Shown here piece by piece: positions 52,856-61,469 of a stretch of 64,000 nucleotides of DNA. Below the pieces are notes generated by a model. That model did no database searches, had not been told where the DNA came from, and worked only from the letters and a program-made list of their open reading frames with translations. How positions within the stretch are numbered: position 1 is the stretch's first letter; the number at the start of each line of letters is the position of its first letter. Both the position numbers and the translations under genes were made by a program. This DNA comes from Patescibacteria group bacterium. Its GTDB lineage: Bacteria; Patescibacteriota; Patescibacteriia; UBA10025; JBIOWE01. Location: the NCBI GenBank assembly GCA_044868145.1, contig JBIOWE010000006.1, positions 78,558 to 142,557 of the forward strand, read 5' to 3'.

Positions 52856-52999
52856 GTTTCAATCTACTAAAGCATGGCGACCTTGGAATGTCATATATAC
52901 TGAACGTTTTACAGCAAAAGCCGAAGCATATAAAAAAGAAAGACAGATAAAATCTTACAAGGGTGGCGAAGGGTTTAAAAAATTGTTGCGTTGAGGCTG

Positions 53000-53106: not shown

Positions 53107-53182
53107 GCCGAGGTAGCTCAGCCGGTAGAGCAACTGTTTTGTAAACAGTAGGTCGGAGGTTCGAATCCTCTCCTCGGCTCCA
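53107..53182 (+). tRNA. tRNA-Thr (anticodon TGT)
   Basis: Acceptor GCCGAGG/CCTCGGC, anticodon stem ACTGT/ACAGT, loop ttTGTaa, T-loop TTCGAAT, CCA encoded. Confidence 0.9.
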
Positions 53183-53198
53183 GGCGATCGGCAGGCGG

Positions 53199-53237
53199 GT
53201 AAACAGTAAGTCGTGGGTTCGAGTCCCACCTCCGGCT
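53199..53237 (+). pseudogene. tRNA-Thr(TGT)-derived 3' fragment (anticodon-loop remnant + variable + T-arm + 3' acceptor; no 5' half)
   Basis: GTAAACAGTAaGTCGtgGGTTCGAgTCCcaCCTCCGGCT parallels GTAAACAGTAgGTCGgaGGTTCGAaTCCtcTCCTCGGCT of the preceding tRNA; the complementary 5' acceptor strand is absent. Confidence 0.55.
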
Positions 53238-53335
53238 TTGCAAAATTTGGGCGGATAGGGCGTCGGTTTCGCCCTACGGGCGATCACCCGAAGGGTAACG
53301 AATCTTCTCCGATATTAACTCCATTAACCTACACT

Positions 53336-53573: not shown

Positions 53574-53607
53574 GGGGCTATCGTTCAATGGCAGGACACT
53601 GGTCTCC
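53574..53607 (+). pseudogene. 5' half of a second tRNA-Trp-like gene (acceptor + D-arm + anticodon stem up to CTCC of the CCA loop)
   Basis: GGGGCTATCGTTCAATGGCAGGACACTGGTCTCC parallels the 5' half of the intact tRNA-Trp; its partner lies at 53809-53845. Confidence 0.5.
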
Positions 53608-53684
53608 CCGCCCGCCTTCGAACGCCTTCACTGGGAGAGTAGTTTAGCGGCAGAACGCCGGTCTCCAACCCGCCCACCAACACT

Positions 53685-53755
53685 GGGGTCATCGTTCAAC
53701 GGCAGGACGTCGGTCTCCAAAACCGATAACCGAGGTTCGAATCCTCGTGACCCCG
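53685..53755 (+). tRNA. tRNA-Trp (anticodon CCA), intact
   Basis: Acceptor GGGGTCA/TGACCCC, anticodon stem TCGGT/ACCGA, loop CTCCAAA, T-arm CGAGG-TTCGAAT-CCTCG; CCA not encoded. Confidence 0.88.
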
Positions 53756-53808
53756 ATGTTGGTGGGCGGACGACTCCTTCCTCTCCCGCTGAAGGCGGTC
53801 GGGTGGGC

Positions 53809-53845
53809 AAAACCAGTAATCGGGGTTCGAATTCCTGTGGCCCCG
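53809..53845 (+). pseudogene. 3' half of the split tRNA-Trp-like gene (AAA of anticodon loop + ACCAG stem + T-arm + acceptor TGGCCCC)
   Basis: AAAACCAGTAATCGGGGTTCGAATTCCTGTGGCCCCG pairs with the 53574 half: acceptor GGGGCTA/TGGCCCC (one G-U), anticodon stem CTGGT/ACCAG. Confidence 0.5.
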
Positions 53846-53911
53846 TATCAATAAAACAATTGTTTATACGTATGAACTTAATTCGTCCTTAACATTAGCA
53901 ATGAACACAAT

Positions 53912-58205: not shown

Positions 58206-59270
58206 ATGCCAACGAAAAAAACTCAGGCAGAAGCGGTGAAGGCTTTATTGGAAGATCCAAAAACAACTGAGGCAAAAAAACAACCGACTCGTTTGCCCGC
58301 AAAAAGATTAGTCCTTTTTGTTTTGCTTGTTCTCGCGAGTCTTGTTGTCGGCACGCTGATCGTGTTCGCCATGGGCATTTACGATTTTCAGTGGCGCGGC
58401 AGCGTGACTCGAGCGGCCATTGGCGTTGTTCCGTATCCCGCGGCGATCGTGAACGTGAGCATCGTGCCCTACAGTACGTTTCTTGATGATGTAGACACGT
58501 TGAACTTTTTTTATGCTGCGCAGCAAACATTGAATCCCGGCGTCCAGGCACCTTCGGAACAAGAACTCCGTCAAATAGTTCTGACACGCATGATCAAGGA
58601 TATTCTAATGCGCAAGAAGGCCCAAGCCTACGGTGTGAGCATTTCGCAAGCGGACGTTGATAAAGAGTTTCAATCAATTGTGAGCCAGGCCGGATCCGTT
58701 GAAGAGGTACGGCAAACGTTGACGACTCTTTATAATTGGGACGAGAAAACGTTCAAAGATAAAGTCTTGCTGCCGTTTCTCCTCAGCCGTGCCTTGGAAG
58801 AAAAACTTGCATACGATCCGCAATTGAATAAAGATGCAAAGCAAAAAGCGGAAGAGGTGCTCGCCAAGCTTCAAGCCGGCGGGGTGACCTTTGAAGATCT
58901 CGCACGTCAATACAGCGAAGACGTTACTGCAAGCTCCGACGGTGATTTAGGGTTTGTACAAAAAGGGGATTTAGTCCCGGAATTTGAGGACGCGATGCTC
59001 AAATTGAAAGAAGGCGAAACATCGGGAATTGTCCAGACACGTTACGGATTCCACATCATTAAGCTCGTGAAAATCGTGCCGGCGACCGATACGAAGCCGG
59101 AGCAATATAGCGTCAAGCATATTTTATTGAAAGCAAAAAGTCTTGACACGTGGCTCCAGGAAGAACTCGCGCGAACGAGAGTGCTCGTTGCCGTTCAGGG
59201 ATACTATTGGGCAGCTTCATGCGACCAGGTTCTGTTGAAAGGTGAACAATGTCCGAGTGCGTCGGGTTAG
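58206..59270 (+). CDS. PpiC-type peptidyl-prolyl cis-trans isomerase (PrsA/SurA-like), membrane-anchored
   Basis: Parvulin domain VKHILLKAKS ... GDLGFVQKGDLVPEFEDAMLKLKEGETSGIVQTRYGFHIIKL. Confidence 0.85.
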   Translation: MPTKKTQAEAVKALLEDPKTTEAKKQPTRLPAKRLVLFVLLVLASLVVGTLIVFAMGIYDFQWRGSVTRAAIGVVPYPAAIVNVSIVPYSTFLDDVDTLNFFYAAQQTLNPGVQAPSEQELRQIVLTRMIKDILMRKKAQAYGVSISQADVDKEFQSIVSQAGSVEEVRQTLTTLYNWDEKTFKDKVLLPFLLSRALEEKLAYDPQLNKDAKQKAEEVLAKLQAGGVTFEDLARQYSEDVTASSDGDLGFVQKGDLVPEFEDAMLKLKEGETSGIVQTRYGFHIIKLVKIVPATDTKPEQYSVKHILLKAKSLDTWLQEELARTRVLVAVQGYYWAASCDQVLLKGEQCPSASG

Positions 59271-59302
59271 GACGTTGTGTTATTAAAAACCCAAAAGCCA
59301 CT

Positions 59303-59330
59303 GGCCCCGCCGATGGCGGGGCGACCTCGT
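59303..59330. terminator. bidirectional terminator hairpin (GGCCCCGCC-gatg-GCGGGGCGACC)
   Basis: Between convergent ppiC-like gene and tRNA-Thr(CGT). Confidence 0.55.
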
Positions 59331-59335
59331 ACCGT

Positions 59336-59411
59336 GGAGCCACTGGTCGGAGTTGAACCGACAACCTCTCCCTTACGAAGGGATTGCTCTGCCAGTTGAG
59401 CTACAGTGGCG
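59336..59411 (-). tRNA. tRNA-Thr (anticodon CGT)
   Basis: Reverse complement: acceptor GCCACTG/CAGTGGC, anticodon stem ATCCC/GGGAG (one A.G), loop ttCGTaa, T-arm GTCGG-TTCAACT-CCGAC, CCA encoded. Confidence 0.85.
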
Positions 59412-59416
59412 TGACT

Positions 59417-59432
59417 TTGGAGCGGGATACCC
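59417..59432. repeat. 16-nt direct repeat TTTGGAGCGGGATACC, copy 1, embedded in a near-palindrome
   Basis: Identical 16-mer recurs at 59726-59741; the two copies bracket the GIY-YIG gene. Confidence 0.7.
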
Positions 59433-59446
59433 GCCCAAATTTTCTC

Positions 59447-59710
59447 CTACTGCCTTACTAATGCTAAACTATTTCTTATATGTTTCTTTACGAAATTGCG
59501 ACCCCATCCTGTTTTAAAATATTTTTCTCGTTCGCGCGCATCGGATTCTGCTAGGAACGCTTCATAATAGAGAAGTTTGAACGGAGTCCGCAGTTTTGTC
59601 GAAAATACTTTACCCGCGCGGTGTTTGTTAAGACGCTTCTTCAAATCATTCGTAAATCCGGTGTATAATTTATTATCTCTGGTACTGTACAGAATGTAAA
59701 CATAGTACAT
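59447..59710 (-). CDS. GIY-YIG nuclease superfamily protein (87 aa)
   Basis: MYYVYILYSTRDNKLYTGFTNDLKKRLNKHRAG...KLLYYEAF...REKYFK..GRNFV matches the GIY-YIG core; the longer 248-aa ORF extension is antisense to neighbouring features. Confidence 0.8.
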   Translation of the reverse strand: MYYVYILYSTRDNKLYTGFTNDLKKRLNKHRAGKVFSTKLRTPFKLLYYEAFLAESDAREREKYFKTGWGRNFVKKHIRNSLALVRQ

Positions 59711-59725
59711 AAAGGAGTCCGAAAA

Positions 59726-59741
59726 TTTGGAGCGGGATACC
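59726..59741. repeat. 16-nt direct repeat TTTGGAGCGGGATACC, copy 2
   Basis: See copy 1. Confidence 0.7.
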
Positions 59742-59766
59742 GGAATCCCTGCCCGCCCTCGCCTTT

Positions 59767-59837
59767 GCGGGTGTAGTATAGCGGCAGTACGCTTGCTTCC
59801 CAAGCAAGAAGAGGCGGTTCGACTCCGCTCATCCGCT
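59767..59837 (+). tRNA. tRNA-Gly (anticodon CCC)
   Basis: Acceptor GCGGGTG/CATCCGC (one G-U), anticodon stem CTTGC/GCAAG, loop ttCCCaa, T-arm GGCGG-TTCGACT-CCGCT, discriminator U. Confidence 0.8.
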
Positions 59838-59862
59838 CGGGCGAAGGCAGGCGGGGAACCGG

Positions 59863-59911
59863 CGCAACAACCTTGGGAAGGTTGTGTACTACCACTATAC
59901 GAATCCCGCAA
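59863..59911 (-). pseudogene. inverted partial tRNA-Gly(CCC)-like copy (5' half intact, 3' half degenerate)
   Basis: Reverse complement GCGGGATTCGTATAGTGGTAGTACACAACCTTCCCAAGGTTG has acceptor, D-arm and CCC anticodon arm but no valid T-arm/acceptor 3' strand. Confidence 0.4.
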
Positions 59912-59939
59912 CATTGTAACATACACTACTGTATCGAAT

Positions 59940-61469
59940 ATGCGTAAAATCGTCAACATATTTTTTTCACTCATCCTGCTCGGCACGTATTTCTTTGCGC
60001 CATTGAACGCACAGGCGTACGATGATCCGCTGCGACTCCGTTTCGCCATGGAGGCCATCCAACATGGGTACACAGCGGAATATCGCAATGCGGATTTTCG
60101 TTTGGCCGTCATGCCCAATCTAGTGAACGAAGCAATTACGCTTGAGATGAAACAGTTTGATGGTGCCGCTGAACTACCATTGCTGGACGGCAAGAAGCTG
60201 GTGAGCGACTACTTTATTTACGATATTTTAAGCCAGGCGGGTAACAACCCCATAGCTTTGAACCGCCCGCTCATTCTTGCGGTTCGTTTTCAATCCGACA
60301 CGCTTTATCGAAAAGTGATCCATTACTGGGCGAGTAACAAGCAACAATGGATACCGCTTCCTTCCACCACAGACTACACCGGCCGCTATGTTCGCGCGTA
60401 TTCCCATCTGCCTTTTTCTCGTATCGCGGTTTTTGAAGATCCGAATTCGTTTGAAGGCGTTGCGTCGTGGTACAGAGATTCCCGTTACCCGTATGGAGCT
60501 GCGATTGATGCGTACCCGATCGGCACCAAGCTGCGCGTCACGAGCATTGAAAATAATATATCAATTATTGTTCAGGTAACGTCTCACGGGTTGAACGCCC
60601 CTGGACGAGTCATTGATCTGACCTCGAACGGTTTCAGCAAGCTCGCGCCGCTCTCGCAAGGGTTAACGCGCGTAAAAGTTGAACCGGTTGATGGACTTGT
60701 GCTTGGCCTGCAGGCGCCTGGGCCAGCCGCGCCTGCTATAGTTTCAAAAGCCGCTATTGCTATCAATGAAAAGACGGGCGCAATTTTGTACGTGAAAAAT
60801 AAGGATATGCGACTGCCCATGGCGAGTCTAACGAAAATCATGACCGCCACCGTTTTTTTGGAGATGAACATACCGTGGGATAAAGTCGTGACCTACCAGG
60901 CGCAAGATAATGCGATTGGCTCGAAGCTCTATGTCAATGTCGGCGATACGATGACCGTGAAGGATTTGTATTATACAAGCCTTGTTGGTTCAGCGAATAA
61001 CGCCACGAATGCGCTCGTGCGCTCTACAGGACTTTCGCGGGCGGATTTTGTTAACCGCATGAACGCTAAGGCGAGCGCGTGGGGACTGACGAATACGCAC
61101 TTTGCTGATGTAACTGGGCTGGATCCCGCAAACGTCACGACAGTCGGGGATTACGCCGTTCTCGCCACTCGCGCGTTGAAGGACTTTCGCCTTCTGCAGG
61201 GCACAACCACGCACAGTTACTCTTTTACCACAATCAATACTGGGGTGGCACATACCATTGTGAATAAAGACAAAATGGTGGACAGCTCCTGGTATATTTC
61301 TGGAACAAAAACTGGCTATCTTGACGAAGCGTTGTATTGTCTCATGACAAAAGCGCGTAAGGACAAGCTGTCCTCGCCGGACGTTATTACTGTCGTGCTC
61401 GGCAGCGGATCAGACGCTCAACGTTACGCGGAAACGAATGCGCTTATTCAGTACGCCCTAAGTAAGTAG
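59940..61469 (+). CDS. secreted RlpA-like (double-psi beta-barrel) domain / D-alanyl-D-alanine carboxypeptidase (peptidase S11) fusion protein
   Basis: ATG 59940 (MRKIVNIFFSLILLG signal); VASWYRDSRYPYGAAIDAYPIGTKLRVT..IIVQVTSHGLNAPGRVIDLTSNGFSKL = RlpA DPBB; ASLTK (SxxK) and SAN(N) motifs of the PBP5-type C-terminal domain. Confidence 0.8.
   Translation: MRKIVNIFFSLILLGTYFFAPLNAQAYDDPLRLRFAMEAIQHGYTAEYRNADFRLAVMPNLVNEAITLEMKQFDGAAELPLLDGKKLVSDYFIYDILSQAGNNPIALNRPLILAVRFQSDTLYRKVIHYWASNKQQWIPLPSTTDYTGRYVRAYSHLPFSRIAVFEDPNSFEGVASWYRDSRYPYGAAIDAYPIGTKLRVTSIENNISIIVQVTSHGLNAPGRVIDLTSNGFSKLAPLSQGLTRVKVEPVDGLVLGLQAPGPAAPAIVSKAAIAINEKTGAILYVKNKDMRLPMASLTKIMTATVFLEMNIPWDKVVTYQAQDNAIGSKLYVNVGDTMTVKDLYYTSLVGSANNATNALVRSTGLSRADFVNRMNAKASAWGLTNTHFADVTGLDPANVTTVGDYAVLATRALKDFRLLQGTTTHSYSFTTINTGVAHTIVNKDKMVDSSWYISGTKTGYLDEALYCLMTKARKDKLSSPDVITVVLGSGSDAQRYAETNALIQYALSK

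What the first reader, a model, noticed from the sequence alone, without database searches (positions are those of the whole stretch)
59417..59741. GIY-YIG nuclease mini-cassette flanked by identical 16-nt direct repeats between two tRNA genes
An 87-aa GIY-YIG-superfamily gene (59447-59710, minus strand) lies between tRNA-Thr(CGT) and tRNA-Gly(CCC). It is bracketed by two identical copies of TTTGGAGCGGGATACC (59417-59432 and 59726-59741). The first copy is embedded in a near-palindrome, TTTGGAGCGGGAT-A-CCCGCCCAAATTT. The 309-bp unit (repeat to repeat) therefore looks like an insertion with duplicated flanks, as expected for a mobile free-standing GIY-YIG homing-endonuclease-like gene. Just downstream, a degenerate inverted half-copy of tRNA-Gly(CCC) faces the intact tRNA-Gly (59863-59911), which suggests recombination around this tRNA hotspot. 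Alternatively the repeats are promoter or processing elements shared by the two tRNA genes, since each lies directly 5' of a tRNA on its respective strand.
Basis: partly seen in the sequence, partly recalled or inferred. Interest (0 to 1): 0.7.

Follow-up and report, generated by a model that had tools for sequence, protein, structure and literature searches.

The report
GIY-YIG mini-element at a split tRNA-Gly
The 16-base repeat is the tail of a hidden, interrupted glycine tRNA gene, duplicated around a tiny 300-base selfish element that encodes one small nuclease; the same layout recurs in many ultra-small (Patescibacteria) bacteria, next to tRNA genes nested inside other tRNA genes.

Summary
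The 16-mer occurs exactly twice (59416-59431, 59726-59741) around an 87-aa GIY-YIG gene.

The reverse complement of the 16-mer is GGT-ATCCCGC-T-CCA-AA. This tRNA is split in its T-loop by a 108-bp palindrome-bounded insert carrying the plus-strand tRNA-Gly(CCC). Removing the insert in silico gives a perfect cloverleaf.

The AT-rich 294 bp between the repeats is a miniature element: one stand-alone GIY-YIG nuclease gene between ~20-nt inverted ends whose cores copy the tRNA-Gly acceptor stem.

- Eight distinct loci, including the window, show tRNA-Gly, then the ORF, then a hairpin plus a 12-16-nt copy of that tRNA's own 3' end.
- About 60 of 83 homologous loci have such inverted ends.
- ORF-less hairpin derivatives exist.
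- Syntenic relatives have tRNA-Gly(CCC) and tRNA-Thr(CGT) without the gene.

The closest known system is Ssn nucleases with flanking hairpin repeats, but the published Ssn motif is absent and the protein looks UPF0213/Slx1-like. How it moves is inferred, not shown. Nesting of a tRNA inside a same-anticodon tRNA recurs (Trp, Leu, Gly elsewhere) and I found no description of it.

The parts
59294..59308 (-). Terminator-like hairpin plus T run. It ends the minus-strand unit tRNA-Gly / GIY-YIG / tRNA-Thr.
59335..59410 (-). tRNA-Thr(CGT). In relatives it is the immediate downstream neighbour of tRNA-Gly(CCC).
59416..59431 (-). Repeat copy 1: a displaced duplicate of the last 16 nt of the outer tRNA-Gly (GGTATCCCGCTCCAAA on the minus strand), 5 nt from tRNA-Thr.
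59416..59439 (.). End hairpin (acceptor-stem-like minihelix), formed by the inner inverted-repeat core GGGCGGG and repeat copy 1.
   Evidence: the same hairpin is seen in L004 and L017
59423..59444 (-). 3'-side terminal inverted repeat of the element (GAAAATTTGGGCGGGTATCCCG on the minus strand).
   Evidence: (I3, 22 nt, 77%)
59447..59710 (-). 87-aa stand-alone GIY-YIG nuclease gene.
59721..59742 (-). 5'-side terminal inverted repeat (CGGTATCCCGCTCCAAATTTTC on the minus strand). It overlaps the tRNA 3' end, which is repeat copy 2 (59726-59741).
59728..59747 (-). 3' segment of the outer tRNA-Gly(CCC): GATT of the T-loop, T-stem CCGGT, acceptor ATCCCGC, discriminator T, CCA.
   Evidence: (in-silico joining gives a perfect cloverleaf)
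59748..59855 (.). 108-bp insert in the T-loop (between positions 56 and 57) of the outer tRNA. It is bounded by imperfect 16-nt inverted arms at 59748-59763 and 59840-59855.
59767..59837 (+). Inner, intact tRNA-Gly(CCC) carried by the insert. It has a different acceptor stem (GCGGGTG/CATCCGC) and no encoded CCA.
59856..59909 (-). 5' segment of the outer tRNA-Gly(CCC): acceptor 5' strand, D arm, anticodon arm, T-stem 5' strand and TTC.
   Evidence: the intact orthologue is in L091
59928..59956 (-). Promoter-like site (TTGACG-17-TACAGT) just upstream of the outer tRNA 5' end.
   Evidence: consensus match only

Best explanation
The 310-bp repeat-to-repeat unit is a miniature selfish DNA element that is mobile now or was mobile in the past.

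Shown:
- It is about 294 bp of AT-rich DNA carrying a single 87-aa stand-alone GIY-YIG nuclease gene.
- It is bounded by ~20-nt terminal inverted repeats (ATCCCGCTCCAAATTTTC ... GAAAATTTGGGCGGGT).
- The cores of these repeats reproduce the two strands of the tRNA-Gly acceptor stem.
- It sits exactly at the 3' end of a minus-strand tRNA-Gly(CCC), between that tRNA and tRNA-Thr(CGT). These two tRNAs are neighbours in relatives.
- The last 16 nt of the tRNA are present on both sides, so the tRNA end stays whole.
- This architecture recurs in other genomes, the ORF is absent from syntenic relatives, ORF-less derivatives exist, and the base composition is foreign.

Inferred:
- The nuclease recognises the hairpin or cruciform formed by the paired element ends on single-stranded or extruded DNA and cuts beside it. 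This would resemble Ssn nucleases with their flanking hairpin repeats, or Slx1 on branched DNA.
- tRNA-Gly genes are preferred landing sites because their acceptor stem mimics that hairpin. Insertion or recombination within the shared ...CCCGCTCCA stretch would give the 12-16-nt duplication.

The tRNA-Gly that hosts the element is itself split in its T-loop by a second kind of palindrome-bounded insert. That insert brings a complete replacement tRNA-Gly(CCC) on the other strand.
For: 1. The repeat is the tRNA 3' end. Joining 59909-59856 to 59747-59726 gives a perfect tRNA-Gly(CCC) with CCA. The orthologous uninterrupted tRNA is in L091.

2. The architecture recurs. In 8 distinct loci (the window plus L010, L013, L014, L016, L017, L018, L028), a tRNA-Gly (TCC, GCC or CCC) lies 11-19 nt upstream of a 59-70%-identical ORF (L010-L028; the window is the query itself). 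The ORF is followed by AAAxTTTGG-GCGGG plus a 12-16-nt copy of that locus's own tRNA 3' end.

3. Every tRNA within 400 nt of a homologue is co-oriented with it: 31 of 31 rows.

4. Inverted ends are general. 58 of 83 distinct loci have an inverted repeat scoring at least 10 between the start and stop regions, against 8 of 83 with mismatched partners. Complementarity is 70-100% per position against 26-45% when partners are shuffled, and all four Watson-Crick pair types occur.

5. Arm mismatches show no sense-strand wobble bias: G.T 19 against A.C 16. This argues for a DNA-level rather than an mRNA-level constraint.

6. ORF-less derivatives exist. L032 has three 36-38-nt solo hairpins within 4.2 kb. 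Pairs of ~100 nt occur in L031, L042, L058, L076, L089, L106 and L095.

7. Empty sites exist. Syntenic loci L091, L092/L093 and L095, and metagenome loci L119, L121, L134, L154 and L159, have tRNA-Gly(CCC) followed by tRNA-Thr(CGT) with no GIY-YIG.

8. Cassette GC is 38.4% against 48.8% for the window, the 1st percentile of equally sized windows.

9. The protein is a confident GIY-YIG fold (pLDDT 92). Y5, Y16, R26, H30 and E62 are invariant across the 29 aligned homologues and N72 across the 9 closest; I take these, from my own knowledge of the family, to be the catalytic residues. The nearest structures are UPF0213 BH0048 and the structure-specific nuclease Slx1.

10. Precedent. Ssn single-domain GIY-YIG nucleases cut ssDNA next to hairpin repeats that flank their own genes, an 'IS-like' layout (PMC11893778). 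GIY-YIG genes in CPR rRNA-gene insertions lie in non-intron insertions (PMC11270868).
Against: - No transposition event, excised circle or cleavage has been seen.
- Identical proteins P0029 and P0039 sit in one and the same genomic context in every contig read (24 each), so there is no sign of recent jumping.
- The window has only one intact copy.
- At non-tRNA sites no target duplication is evident, so the duplication at tRNA-Gly may come from recombination rather than a staggered cut.
- The published Ssn-related motif is absent: 0 hits in 83 loci.
- An 87-aa domain acting alone as a transposase has no precedent.
- Strict co-orientation with tRNAs, and element ends that supply stop codons and Shine-Dalgarno-like sequences to neighbouring genes, also fit a long-resident, co-transcribed gene.
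Confidence: 0.6

Rival explanations
1. The gene is a resident accessory gene of tRNA operons. It would be a host nuclease, for example for DNA or tRNA maintenance, transcribed together with tRNA genes. The inverted ends and the acceptor-like minihelix with CCA would then be RNA signals. They would let RNase P, RNase Z or RNase III cut the mRNA out of the tRNA precursor, or protect its 3' end. On this view the repeat is functional mimicry, not an insertion scar.
For: - Strict co-orientation with tRNAs.
- Promoter-like and terminator-like sites bracket the unit tRNA-Gly / ORF / tRNA-Thr.
- The hairpin ends in ...CCCGCUCCA, like a tRNA acceptor end.
- Identical proteins stay at one locus across many samples.
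Against: - There is no G.U over A.C bias in the arms.
- The same inverted ends bracket homologues far from any tRNA.
- The duplicated segment includes 2-4 T-stem nucleotides that fall in the hairpin loop and still match the locus's own tRNA. That fits duplication, not selection for pairing.
- Solo hairpins and ORF-less pairs exist.
- Syntenic relatives lack the gene.
- The base composition is foreign.
Confidence: 0.17
2. It is a classical free-standing homing endonuclease using intron-less homing, like T4 SegB in the tRNA cluster. The enzyme would cut tRNA-Gly genes that lack it, and repair from a filled allele would copy it in using the conserved tRNA flanks as homology. The T-loop insert with a divergent tRNA-Gly would be an immune replacement allele.
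For: - It belongs to the GIY-YIG superfamily.
- It is adjacent to tRNA genes, as is SegB (PMC2330249).
- Empty and filled loci both exist.
- The inner tRNA-Gly lacks the CCCGCTCCA motif.
Against: - There is no DNA-binding domain: the protein is only 87 aa.
- TIGR01453 scores 19.3 bits against a cutoff of 56. I-TevI is only a weak structural match.
- Terminal inverted repeats, solo hairpins and many different non-tRNA sites are not features of homing genes.
- Tsurumaki et al. judged CPR rRNA GIY-YIG insertions to be 'outside the context of homing' (PMC11270868).
Confidence: 0.12
3. The arrangement is a chance repeat or an assembly artefact at repeated tRNA sequences.
For: tRNA genes are repeated and can mislead assemblers. 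The source is probably a metagenome-assembled genome (its closest protein relatives come from Patescibacteria MAGs and metagenome contigs), though the source record itself could not be retrieved or named.
Against: - A chance exact 16-mer recurrence is expected about 3e-5 times.
- The same architecture appears in independent assemblies from NCBI, JGI, ENA and Logan.
Confidence: 0.02

Closest known systems
Ssn nucleases with NTS/SRM hairpin repeats (Chenal et al. 2025, PMC11893778)
   Same: - A single-domain GIY-YIG protein of about 90-100 aa.
- The gene is bracketed by hairpin-forming GC-rich repeats with a CCCGC/GCGGG core, an 'IS-like' repeat-gene-repeat layout.
- Extra solo hairpins occur in the genome (L032).
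   Different: - The published SRM pattern is absent: 0 of 83 loci.
- Here the two flanks pair with each other (terminal inverted repeats overlapping the stop codon), rather than each flank being a separate oriented hairpin.
- The sequence is nearest to UPF0213/YazA and Slx1; assignment to cd10448 could not be checked.
- The link to tRNA-Gly ends is not mentioned in that paper (0 occurrences of 'tRNA').
- No biochemistry has been done for this protein.
REP/RAYT and IS200/IS605 (HUH transposases acting on ssDNA hairpins)
   Same: A small nuclease gene flanked by its cognate palindromes, with ORF-less palindromic copies dispersed in the genome.
   Different: The enzyme fold is different (GIY-YIG, not HUH). 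The ends pair with each other. Targeting of tRNA ends with a 12-16-nt duplication is not a feature of those systems (from my own knowledge of them).
GIY-YIG-encoding non-intron insertions in CPR rRNA genes (Tsurumaki et al. 2024, PMC11270868)
   Same: The same phylum, and the same kind of small GIY-YIG gene inside or next to structural RNA genes. They are not group I or II introns and were judged not to spread by homing.
   Different: Those were described in rRNA genes. The four passages of that paper that mention GIY-YIG describe no inverted ends, tRNA-end duplication or acceptor-stem mimicry.
Integrative elements that target tRNA 3' ends (phage/ICE att sites; casposons with TIRs and a 14-15-bp duplication at tRNA-Pro; from my own knowledge)
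   Same: A direct repeat made of the tRNA 3' end brackets the insert and the tRNA stays intact. In casposons, TIRs occur together with the duplication.
   Different: There is no integrase, Cas1 or any other recombinase. The whole element is about 300 bp and has one 87-aa ORF.
T4 SegB, a free-standing GIY-YIG homing endonuclease in a tRNA cluster (PMC2330249)
   Same: A GIY-YIG gene embedded among tRNA genes.
   Different: SegB has a DNA-binding region, makes site-specific double-strand cuts, and has no inverted ends or tRNA-end duplication.
Disrupted tRNA genes: archaeal introns at non-canonical positions, split or permuted tRNAs, and Patescibacteria group I introns at 35/36 (PMC4390854, PMC13011429)
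   Same: The tRNA coding sequence is interrupted in a loop (T-loop here; anticodon loop for tRNA-Trp) by a sequence closed by a long helix.
   Different: The interruption carries a complete second tRNA gene of the same anticodon, sometimes on the opposite strand. No group I or II intron model matches. Outer copies are decayed in some loci (L092, the middle Trp copy), which argues against splicing.

Membership tests
GIY-YIG nuclease superfamily (PF01541) | Significant match to the GIY-YIG catalytic domain model | tested here: met
   E = 2.6e-17, 63.3 bits against a cutoff of 22.6
GIY-YIG nuclease superfamily (PF01541) | Conserved catalytic residues (GIY Tyr, YIG Tyr, Arg, His, Glu, Asn) and the alpha/beta fold | tested here: met
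   Y5, Y16, G18, R26, H30 and E62 are invariant in 29 homologues and N72 in the closest 9. The model has pLDDT 92 with a three-stranded sheet plus helices.
UPF0213 / bacterial Slx1-like cluster (YhbQ, YazA, BH0048) | Single-domain protein under 110 aa with significant sequence similarity to UPF0213 members | tested here: met
   The profile hits BH0048 at 6.5e-16 and EF2693 at 2.2e-12, then SLX1 at 1e-4. Top Foldseek hits are 1zg2 and then Slx1. tblastn against plasmids hits YazA at 39% identity.
Ssn family (Chenal et al. 2025) | Assignment to CDD cd10448 (GIY-YIG_unchar_3), or clade membership with SsnA | not testable with these tools
   No CDD search and no SsnA sequence were available. The paper's supplements are not held.
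Ssn family (Chenal et al. 2025) | Gene flanked by SRM elements as defined by HGTCWYN(0-2)YYVSBRHN(0-5)WNVSBRGN(0-2)RNCYNB | tested here: not met
   0 matches in the +/-500-bp flanks of 83 loci (103 kb), against 1 in shuffles
Ssn family (Chenal et al. 2025) | Flanked on both sides by 20-50-nt hairpin-forming inverted repeats; extra copies in the genome | tested here: inconclusive
   Inverted repeats bracket 58 of 83 loci, but the two flanks pair with each other. Local hairpins occur at tRNA-linked copies. Solo hairpins occur in L032.
Ssn family (Chenal et al. 2025) | Site-specific cleavage of ssDNA only | not testable with these tools
   This needs biochemistry.
Free-standing or intron-encoded GIY-YIG homing endonuclease (I-TevI / Seg type) | Catalytic domain joined to a C-terminal DNA-binding domain; match to TIGR01453 | tested here: not met
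   87 aa in total, all catalytic domain. TIGR01453 scores 19.3 bits against a cutoff of 56.05.
Insertion sequence / MITE-like DNA transposon | Terminal inverted repeats | tested here: met
   Mean arm length 18 nt in 60 loci, with covariation across loci
Insertion sequence / MITE-like DNA transposon | Target-site duplication | tested here: inconclusive
   A 12-16-nt duplication of the tRNA 3' end is present at all 8 tRNA-Gly-linked loci. None is evident at non-tRNA sites.
Insertion sequence / MITE-like DNA transposon | Several copies per genome and presence/absence polymorphism | tested here: inconclusive
   Polymorphism among syntenic relatives is shown, and ORF-less copies exist. However, the window has one intact copy plus one remnant, and identical proteins occupy one context only.
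Insertion sequence / MITE-like DNA transposon | A recognised transposase or recombinase | tested here: not met
   The only ORF is the 87-aa GIY-YIG domain.
tRNA intron (group I/II) for the 108-bp T-loop insert | Match to an intron covariance model; a plausible splicing route | tested here: not met
   Rfam at E <= 1 finds only tRNA models in 58500-60500. The insert is a 16-bp helix plus an antisense tRNA. Outer copies are decayed in L092 and in the middle Trp copy.

The most novel reading that the evidence does not exclude
Patescibacteria may harbour an undescribed two-part mobile system centred on tRNA genes.

(a) The first part would be ~300-bp elements encoding a bare GIY-YIG nuclease. Their inverted ends mimic the tRNA-Gly acceptor stem, and they would use that mimicry, through hairpin or DNA-guided recognition on single-stranded DNA, to land at tRNA ends.

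(b) The second part would be palindrome-bounded cassettes with ends CCGCCYRCC...GGYRGGCGG. These carry a whole replacement tRNA gene and insert into the loop-coding positions (T-loop, anticodon loop, D-loop) of the resident tRNA gene of the same anticodon, producing 'Russian-doll' tRNA genes.

The nuclease would be the enzyme that cuts the tRNA-gene cloverleaf DNA and mobilises both parts.
Probability: 0.3. Interest if true: 0.85.

Novelty: new variant of a known kind. Interest (0 to 1): 0.72.

Why it matters
If the inference holds, a protein of only 87 residues together with ~20-nt hairpin-forming ends would be among the smallest autonomous mobile units known. It would choose its target by mimicking a tRNA acceptor stem.

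That would extend the newly described biology of Ssn nucleases and their hairpin repeats to the UPF0213/Slx1-like branch and to Patescibacteria. It would also give a rationale for the many unexplained small 'GIY-YIG nuclease family' genes: 8193 clusters at E <= 1e-3.

There are practical consequences:
- Standard tRNA finders mis-call these loci. A split but complete tRNA-Gly was reported as a poor 'tRNA' (24 bits).
- Gene callers add false N-terminal extensions made of translated tRNA.

The nested same-anticodon tRNA genes (Gly, Trp, Leu, Cys) appear not to have been described. They bear on how essential tRNA genes are replaced in reduced genomes.

Tried and rejected
- **Promoter or processing-signal idea.** The 16-mer is absent from the other tRNAs of the window, even allowing 3 mismatches.
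- **Group I/II intron or other known RNA.** For the T-loop insert and the cassette, Rfam at E <= 1 gives only tRNA.
- **Classical homing endonuclease.** TIGR01453 is far below its cutoff and there is no DNA-binding domain.
- **Ssn SRM motif.** 0 hits.
- **mRNA 5'/3' stem.** There is no G.U bias in the arms.
- **Recent transposition.** Identical proteins P0029 and P0039 were looked up. Each had a single genomic context in all 24 contigs read.
- **Exact look-up of the window's own protein or contig.** It is not retrievable and carries no name.
- **Phage vector.** Viral contigs hold only relatives at 48% identity or less, and only 2 of the 13 loci scanned carry any tRNA genes, none next to the gene.
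- **Generic scan for tRNAs restored by deleting any inverted-repeat-bounded segment.** It did no better than its control, 9 against 12. A targeted scan requiring the same anticodon worked.
- **Retroelement idea.** The inner end resembles a primer-binding site for tRNA-Gly. Rejected because there is no reverse transcriptase.
- **Tandem tRNA-Gly duplication with decay of the second copy.** Rejected as the sole cause. The 5' strand of the end hairpin is the constant GGGCGGG rather than each tRNA's own 5' strand, and the inverted repeat extends into locus-specific non-tRNA sequence.
- **L128.** It carries the most similar outer tRNA but is not a close genome relative.
Full report
**1. Observation**

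- The 16-mer TTTGGAGCGGGATACC occurs exactly twice in the 64-kb window, at 59416-59431 and 59726-59741. No further copy appears even with 3 mismatches allowed. The spacing is 310 nt.
- A chance exact recurrence is expected about 3e-5 times.
- Between the copies lies ORF 59447-59710 (-), 87 aa, matching PF01541 GIY-YIG at E = 2.6e-17.
- Copy 1 is part of a hairpin, TTTGGAGCGGG-ATA-CCCGCCCAAA. As DNA it folds at -9.8 kcal/mol, z = -4.35.

**2. What the repeat is**

- Read on the minus strand, the 16-mer is GGT-ATCCCGC-T-CCA-AA: the end of a T stem, an acceptor 3' strand, a discriminator and CCA.
- The matching 5' part (GCGGGAT, D arm, anticodon arm CAACC-TTCCCAA-GGTTG, T-stem GCCGG, TTC) is the stretch 59909-59856. 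ARAGORN and Rfam call this stretch only as a poor tRNA, at 24 bits.
- Deleting 59748-59855 in silico gives a perfect 74-nt tRNA-Gly(CCC) cloverleaf with a TTCGATT T-loop and CCA.
- The 108-bp insert sits between T-loop positions 56 and 57. It consists of a 16-bp imperfect helix (59748-59763 / 59840-59855) enclosing the plus-strand tRNA-Gly(CCC) at 59767-59837.
- The minus-strand RNA is predicted to keep the acceptor, anticodon and T stems with the insert as a long extra arm (z = -5.1).
- The orthologous tRNA is uninterrupted in the syntenic locus L091.

**3. The cassette is one member of a family**

- Homologues of the ORF are mostly from Patescibacteria MAGs. There are 8193 clusters at 50% identity with E <= 1e-3.
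- I collected 80 genome loci plus loci from exact look-ups. Every tRNA within 400 nt of a homologue is on the same strand (31 of 31 rows).
- The closest homologues (59-70% identity) lie 11-19 nt downstream of a tRNA-Gly (TCC, GCC or CCC). After the stop codon they are always followed by AAAxTTTGG-GCGGG plus a copy of that locus's own last 12-16 tRNA nucleotides:

| Locus | Copied tRNA 3' end |
|---|---|
| Window | GGTATCCCGCTCCAAA |
| L017 | GGTCGCCCGCTCCAAA |
| L018 | GTTACCCGCTCCAA |
| L010 | CCTACCCGCTCCA |
| L013, L028 | GTCTCCCGCTCCA |
| L014 | GGTATCCCGCTC |

- The copy includes 2-4 T-stem nucleotides that end up in the hairpin loop. That points to duplication rather than selection for pairing.
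- A mirror arrangement exists in L020 and L001: the ORF lies directly 5' of tRNA-Gly, with a hairpin upstream.

**4. Inverted ends**

- In 58 of 83 distinct loci, the 70 nt before the ATG and the stop-codon region form an inverted repeat scoring at least 10. With mismatched partners the figure is 8 of 83.
- The consensus is (ATTN)ACCCGCC(A/T)AAAyTTTT...ATG and ...AAAAyTTT(A)GGCGGGT(NAAT). The right arm contains the stop codon.
- Other arm families occur (ATCCCGTACGAAAT, ACCTGTCAAAGTTTTAGCTGA, ACCCCCACACCAAATT).
- Own-partner complementarity is 70-100% per position over 19 positions, against 26-45% when partners are shuffled. All four Watson-Crick pair types are present. The register was defined by the best repeat, so the outer ~10 positions are partly circular.
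- Mismatches show no wobble bias for the sense strand: G.T 19 against A.C 16. The constraint therefore looks DNA-level.
- In the window the arms are 59721-59742 and 59423-59444 (I3).
- The arm cores ACCCGC / GCGGGT are the two strands of a tRNA-Gly acceptor stem. At tRNA-linked copies the tRNA's own 3' (or 5') strand serves as one arm.

**5. Evidence for insertion and mobility**

- The neighbour protein (DPBB/S11, 59940-61469) has relatives at 58-62% identity. Their loci keep DivIC / SurA-like / gap / DPBB-S11 / ABC / FtsX.
- In L091, L092, L093 and L095 the gap holds minus-strand tRNA-Thr(CGT) and tRNA-Gly(CCC) and no GIY-YIG ORF; L094 starts at the contig end, so its gap is not covered.
- A metagenome scan with the outer anticodon arm found further Patescibacteria-type loci with tRNA-Gly(CCC) followed 2-260 nt later by tRNA-Thr(CGT) and no GIY-YIG (L119, L121, L134, L154, L159, L128).
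- L095 keeps a direct repeat AGCGGGTAACGG around a ~90-bp ORF-less spacer at the same place. It also has an ORF-less inverted-repeat pair on the other side of the tRNA.
- ORF-less derivatives occur elsewhere. These include three 36-38-nt solo hairpins within 4.2 kb of L032.
- The cassette is 38.4% GC in a 48.8% GC window, the 1st percentile.
- Against very recent movement: two identical proteins, P0029 and P0039, always sit in the same context in the 24 contigs read for each. The window holds one intact copy, one C-terminal remnant and one extra end-like motif.

**6. The protein**

- The model is confident (pLDDT 92).
- The nearest solved relatives are UPF0213 BH0048 and EF2693, then Slx1, a nuclease for branched DNA. 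I-TevI is a weak match.
- The conserved residues Y5, Y16, R26, H30, E62 and N72, which I take to be the catalytic set, are present.
- There is no second domain, and TIGR01453 is far below its cutoff.

**7. Comparison with what is known**

- Chenal et al. 2025 (PMC11893778) showed that single-domain GIY-YIG 'Ssn' proteins (CDD cd10448) cut ssDNA next to hairpin repeats (NTS/SRM) that flank their own genes. They noted the IS-like layout and the analogy to REP/RAYT and IS200/IS605. They also showed that half-sites supplied in trans can guide cleavage.
- This is the closest mechanistic precedent, but there are differences. Their SRM pattern is absent here (0 of 83 loci). The flanks here pair with each other. 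This protein looks UPF0213/Slx1-like. I could not test cd10448 membership. That paper does not mention tRNA.
- Tsurumaki et al. 2024 (PMC11270868) reported GIY-YIG genes in non-intron insertions of CPR rRNA genes and judged them not to spread by homing.
- Nakagawa et al. 2026 (PMC13011429) describe group I introns at position 35/36 of Patescibacteria tRNAs. That is not this.
- Four full-text searches found no description of acceptor-stem-mimicking ends, tRNA-Gly-end duplication, or nesting of a tRNA inside a tRNA.

**8. Mechanism (inference)**

- I think the most likely course is as follows. The paired ends form a hairpin or cruciform that the nuclease recognises and cuts beside. A tRNA-Gly gene in single-stranded form presents the same GCGGG/CCCGC helix and is therefore a preferred site.
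- Integration by recombination or guided cleavage within the shared ...CCCGCTCCA stretch reproduces the observed layout exactly: tRNA[...ATCCCGCTCCAAA]TTTTC-ORF-...AAATTTGGGCGGGT[ATCCCGCTCCAAA]GTCAC.
- It is unresolved whether the duplication is a staggered-cut target duplication or an att-like crossover. No duplication is visible at non-tRNA sites.
- Element ends often supply the stop codon of the upstream gene (TAA/TGA-CCCGCC). They also supply an SD-like AGGCGGGTAAATG for the downstream gene. This would make insertions in tight intergenic spaces tolerable.

**9. Nested tRNAs**

- The T-loop insert is not unique.
- In the window, deleting 53608-53808 restores an outer tRNA-Trp(CCA) around a decayed middle copy and an intact inner tRNA-Trp, which is flanked by a perfect 13-nt inverted repeat.
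- tRNA-Thr(TGT) is followed by a second 3' half.
- L092/L093 have the orthologous outer tRNA-Gly(CCC) split in the anticodon loop by a different, same-strand tRNA-Gly(CCC).
- L001 has nested Gly(GCC) and Cys(GCA). L013 has a triple-nested Leu(TAA).
- All five CCGCCYRCC motifs in the window lie at such insert borders.
- The different positions and different cargo at one orthologous tRNA imply repeated independent events.
- Decayed outer copies argue for DNA-level replacement rather than splicing. The perfect outer Gly and Trp copies leave splicing formally open.
- Their link to the GIY-YIG nuclease is circumstantial: co-location and similar CCCGCC/GGCGGG ends.

**10. Verdict**

It is sharpened in two ways. 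The flanks are a tRNA 3' end, and the element is a TIR-bounded, Ssn-like or UPF0213-like mini-element rather than a homing gene.
- This is a new variant of a known kind. The unexplained nesting of tRNAs inside same-anticodon tRNAs may be more novel than the cassette itself.

Noticed in passing
window 53574-53846: 'Russian-doll' tRNA-Trp(CCA). The outer gene (53574-53607 plus 53809-53846) is restored by deleting 53608-53808. Inside are a decayed middle tRNA-Trp and an intact inner tRNA-Trp (53684-53756), the latter flanked by a perfect 13-nt inverted repeat CCGCCCACCAACA / TGTTGGTGGGCGG.
   Followed up: yes
window 53107-53256: tRNA-Thr(TGT) is followed by GGCGATCGGCAGGCGG and a second tRNA-Thr(TGT) 3' half (53199-53237). 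After that comes an element-end-like motif AAAATTTGGGCGGAT (53242-53256).
   Followed up: partly
window 52857-52994: A remnant of a second, different GIY-YIG gene: the C-terminal 45 aa, ...WNVIYTERFTAKAEAYKKERQIKSYKGGEGFKKLLR*. It starts right at the 3' end of tRNA-Thr(GGT). The Pfam GIY-YIG match is E = 0.003, below threshold.
   Followed up: partly
window 53190, 53608, 53670, 53761, 59846: The motif CCGCCYRCC occurs five times in 64 kb, against 1.5 expected. Every occurrence lies at the border of a tRNA-carrying insert inside another tRNA.
   Followed up: yes
L032 1773-1808, 3545-3582, 4123-4160: Three 36-38-nt solo hairpins (CCCGCCTAAATTTTTGCG-CAAG-CAAAAACTTGGGCGGG) lie within 4.2 kb of a contig that also carries one GIY-YIG element. 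This is a REP/SRM-like dispersal of the joined element ends.
   Followed up: partly
L092 2700-2960; L091 2540-2840: Syntenic relatives show the orthologous tRNA-Gly(CCC) split in the anticodon loop by a different tRNA-Gly(CCC). They also show tRNA-Thr(CGT) embedded in remnants of another tRNA-Thr(CGT), with extra GC-rich hairpins in D- and T-loop positions.
   Followed up: partly
L013 3300-3650; L001 1240-1430 and 3274-3491: Triple-nested tRNA-Leu(TAA) in L013, and nested tRNA-Cys(GCA) and tRNA-Gly(GCC) in L001. In L001, part of the outer tRNA is deleted, and the insert ends read CCAGCAC...GTGCTGG.
   Followed up: partly
L052, L069/L087, L050, L029, L071 (about 100 nt upstream of the ORF): A second style of GIY-YIG cassette sits upstream of tRNA-Lys, Pro, Asn, Val or Ser. 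Upstream of the ORF is a duplicated 5' part of that tRNA, and this pseudo-fragment carries a ~45-nt GC-rich hairpin in its D-loop.
   Followed up: no
proteins P0005, P0079, P0113 (e.g. L004 3001-3072): Database gene calls for several homologues carry false N-terminal extensions that are translated tRNA sequence (..GGSIPPTRS..).
   Followed up: yes
L022, L026, L031, L033, L034, L036, L059 (element ends): At non-tRNA sites the element is wedged between genes. Its left end often contains the upstream gene's stop codon (TAA/TGA-CCCGCC). Its right end (AGGCGGGTAAATG) looks like a Shine-Dalgarno sequence plus start codon for the downstream gene.
   Followed up: partly
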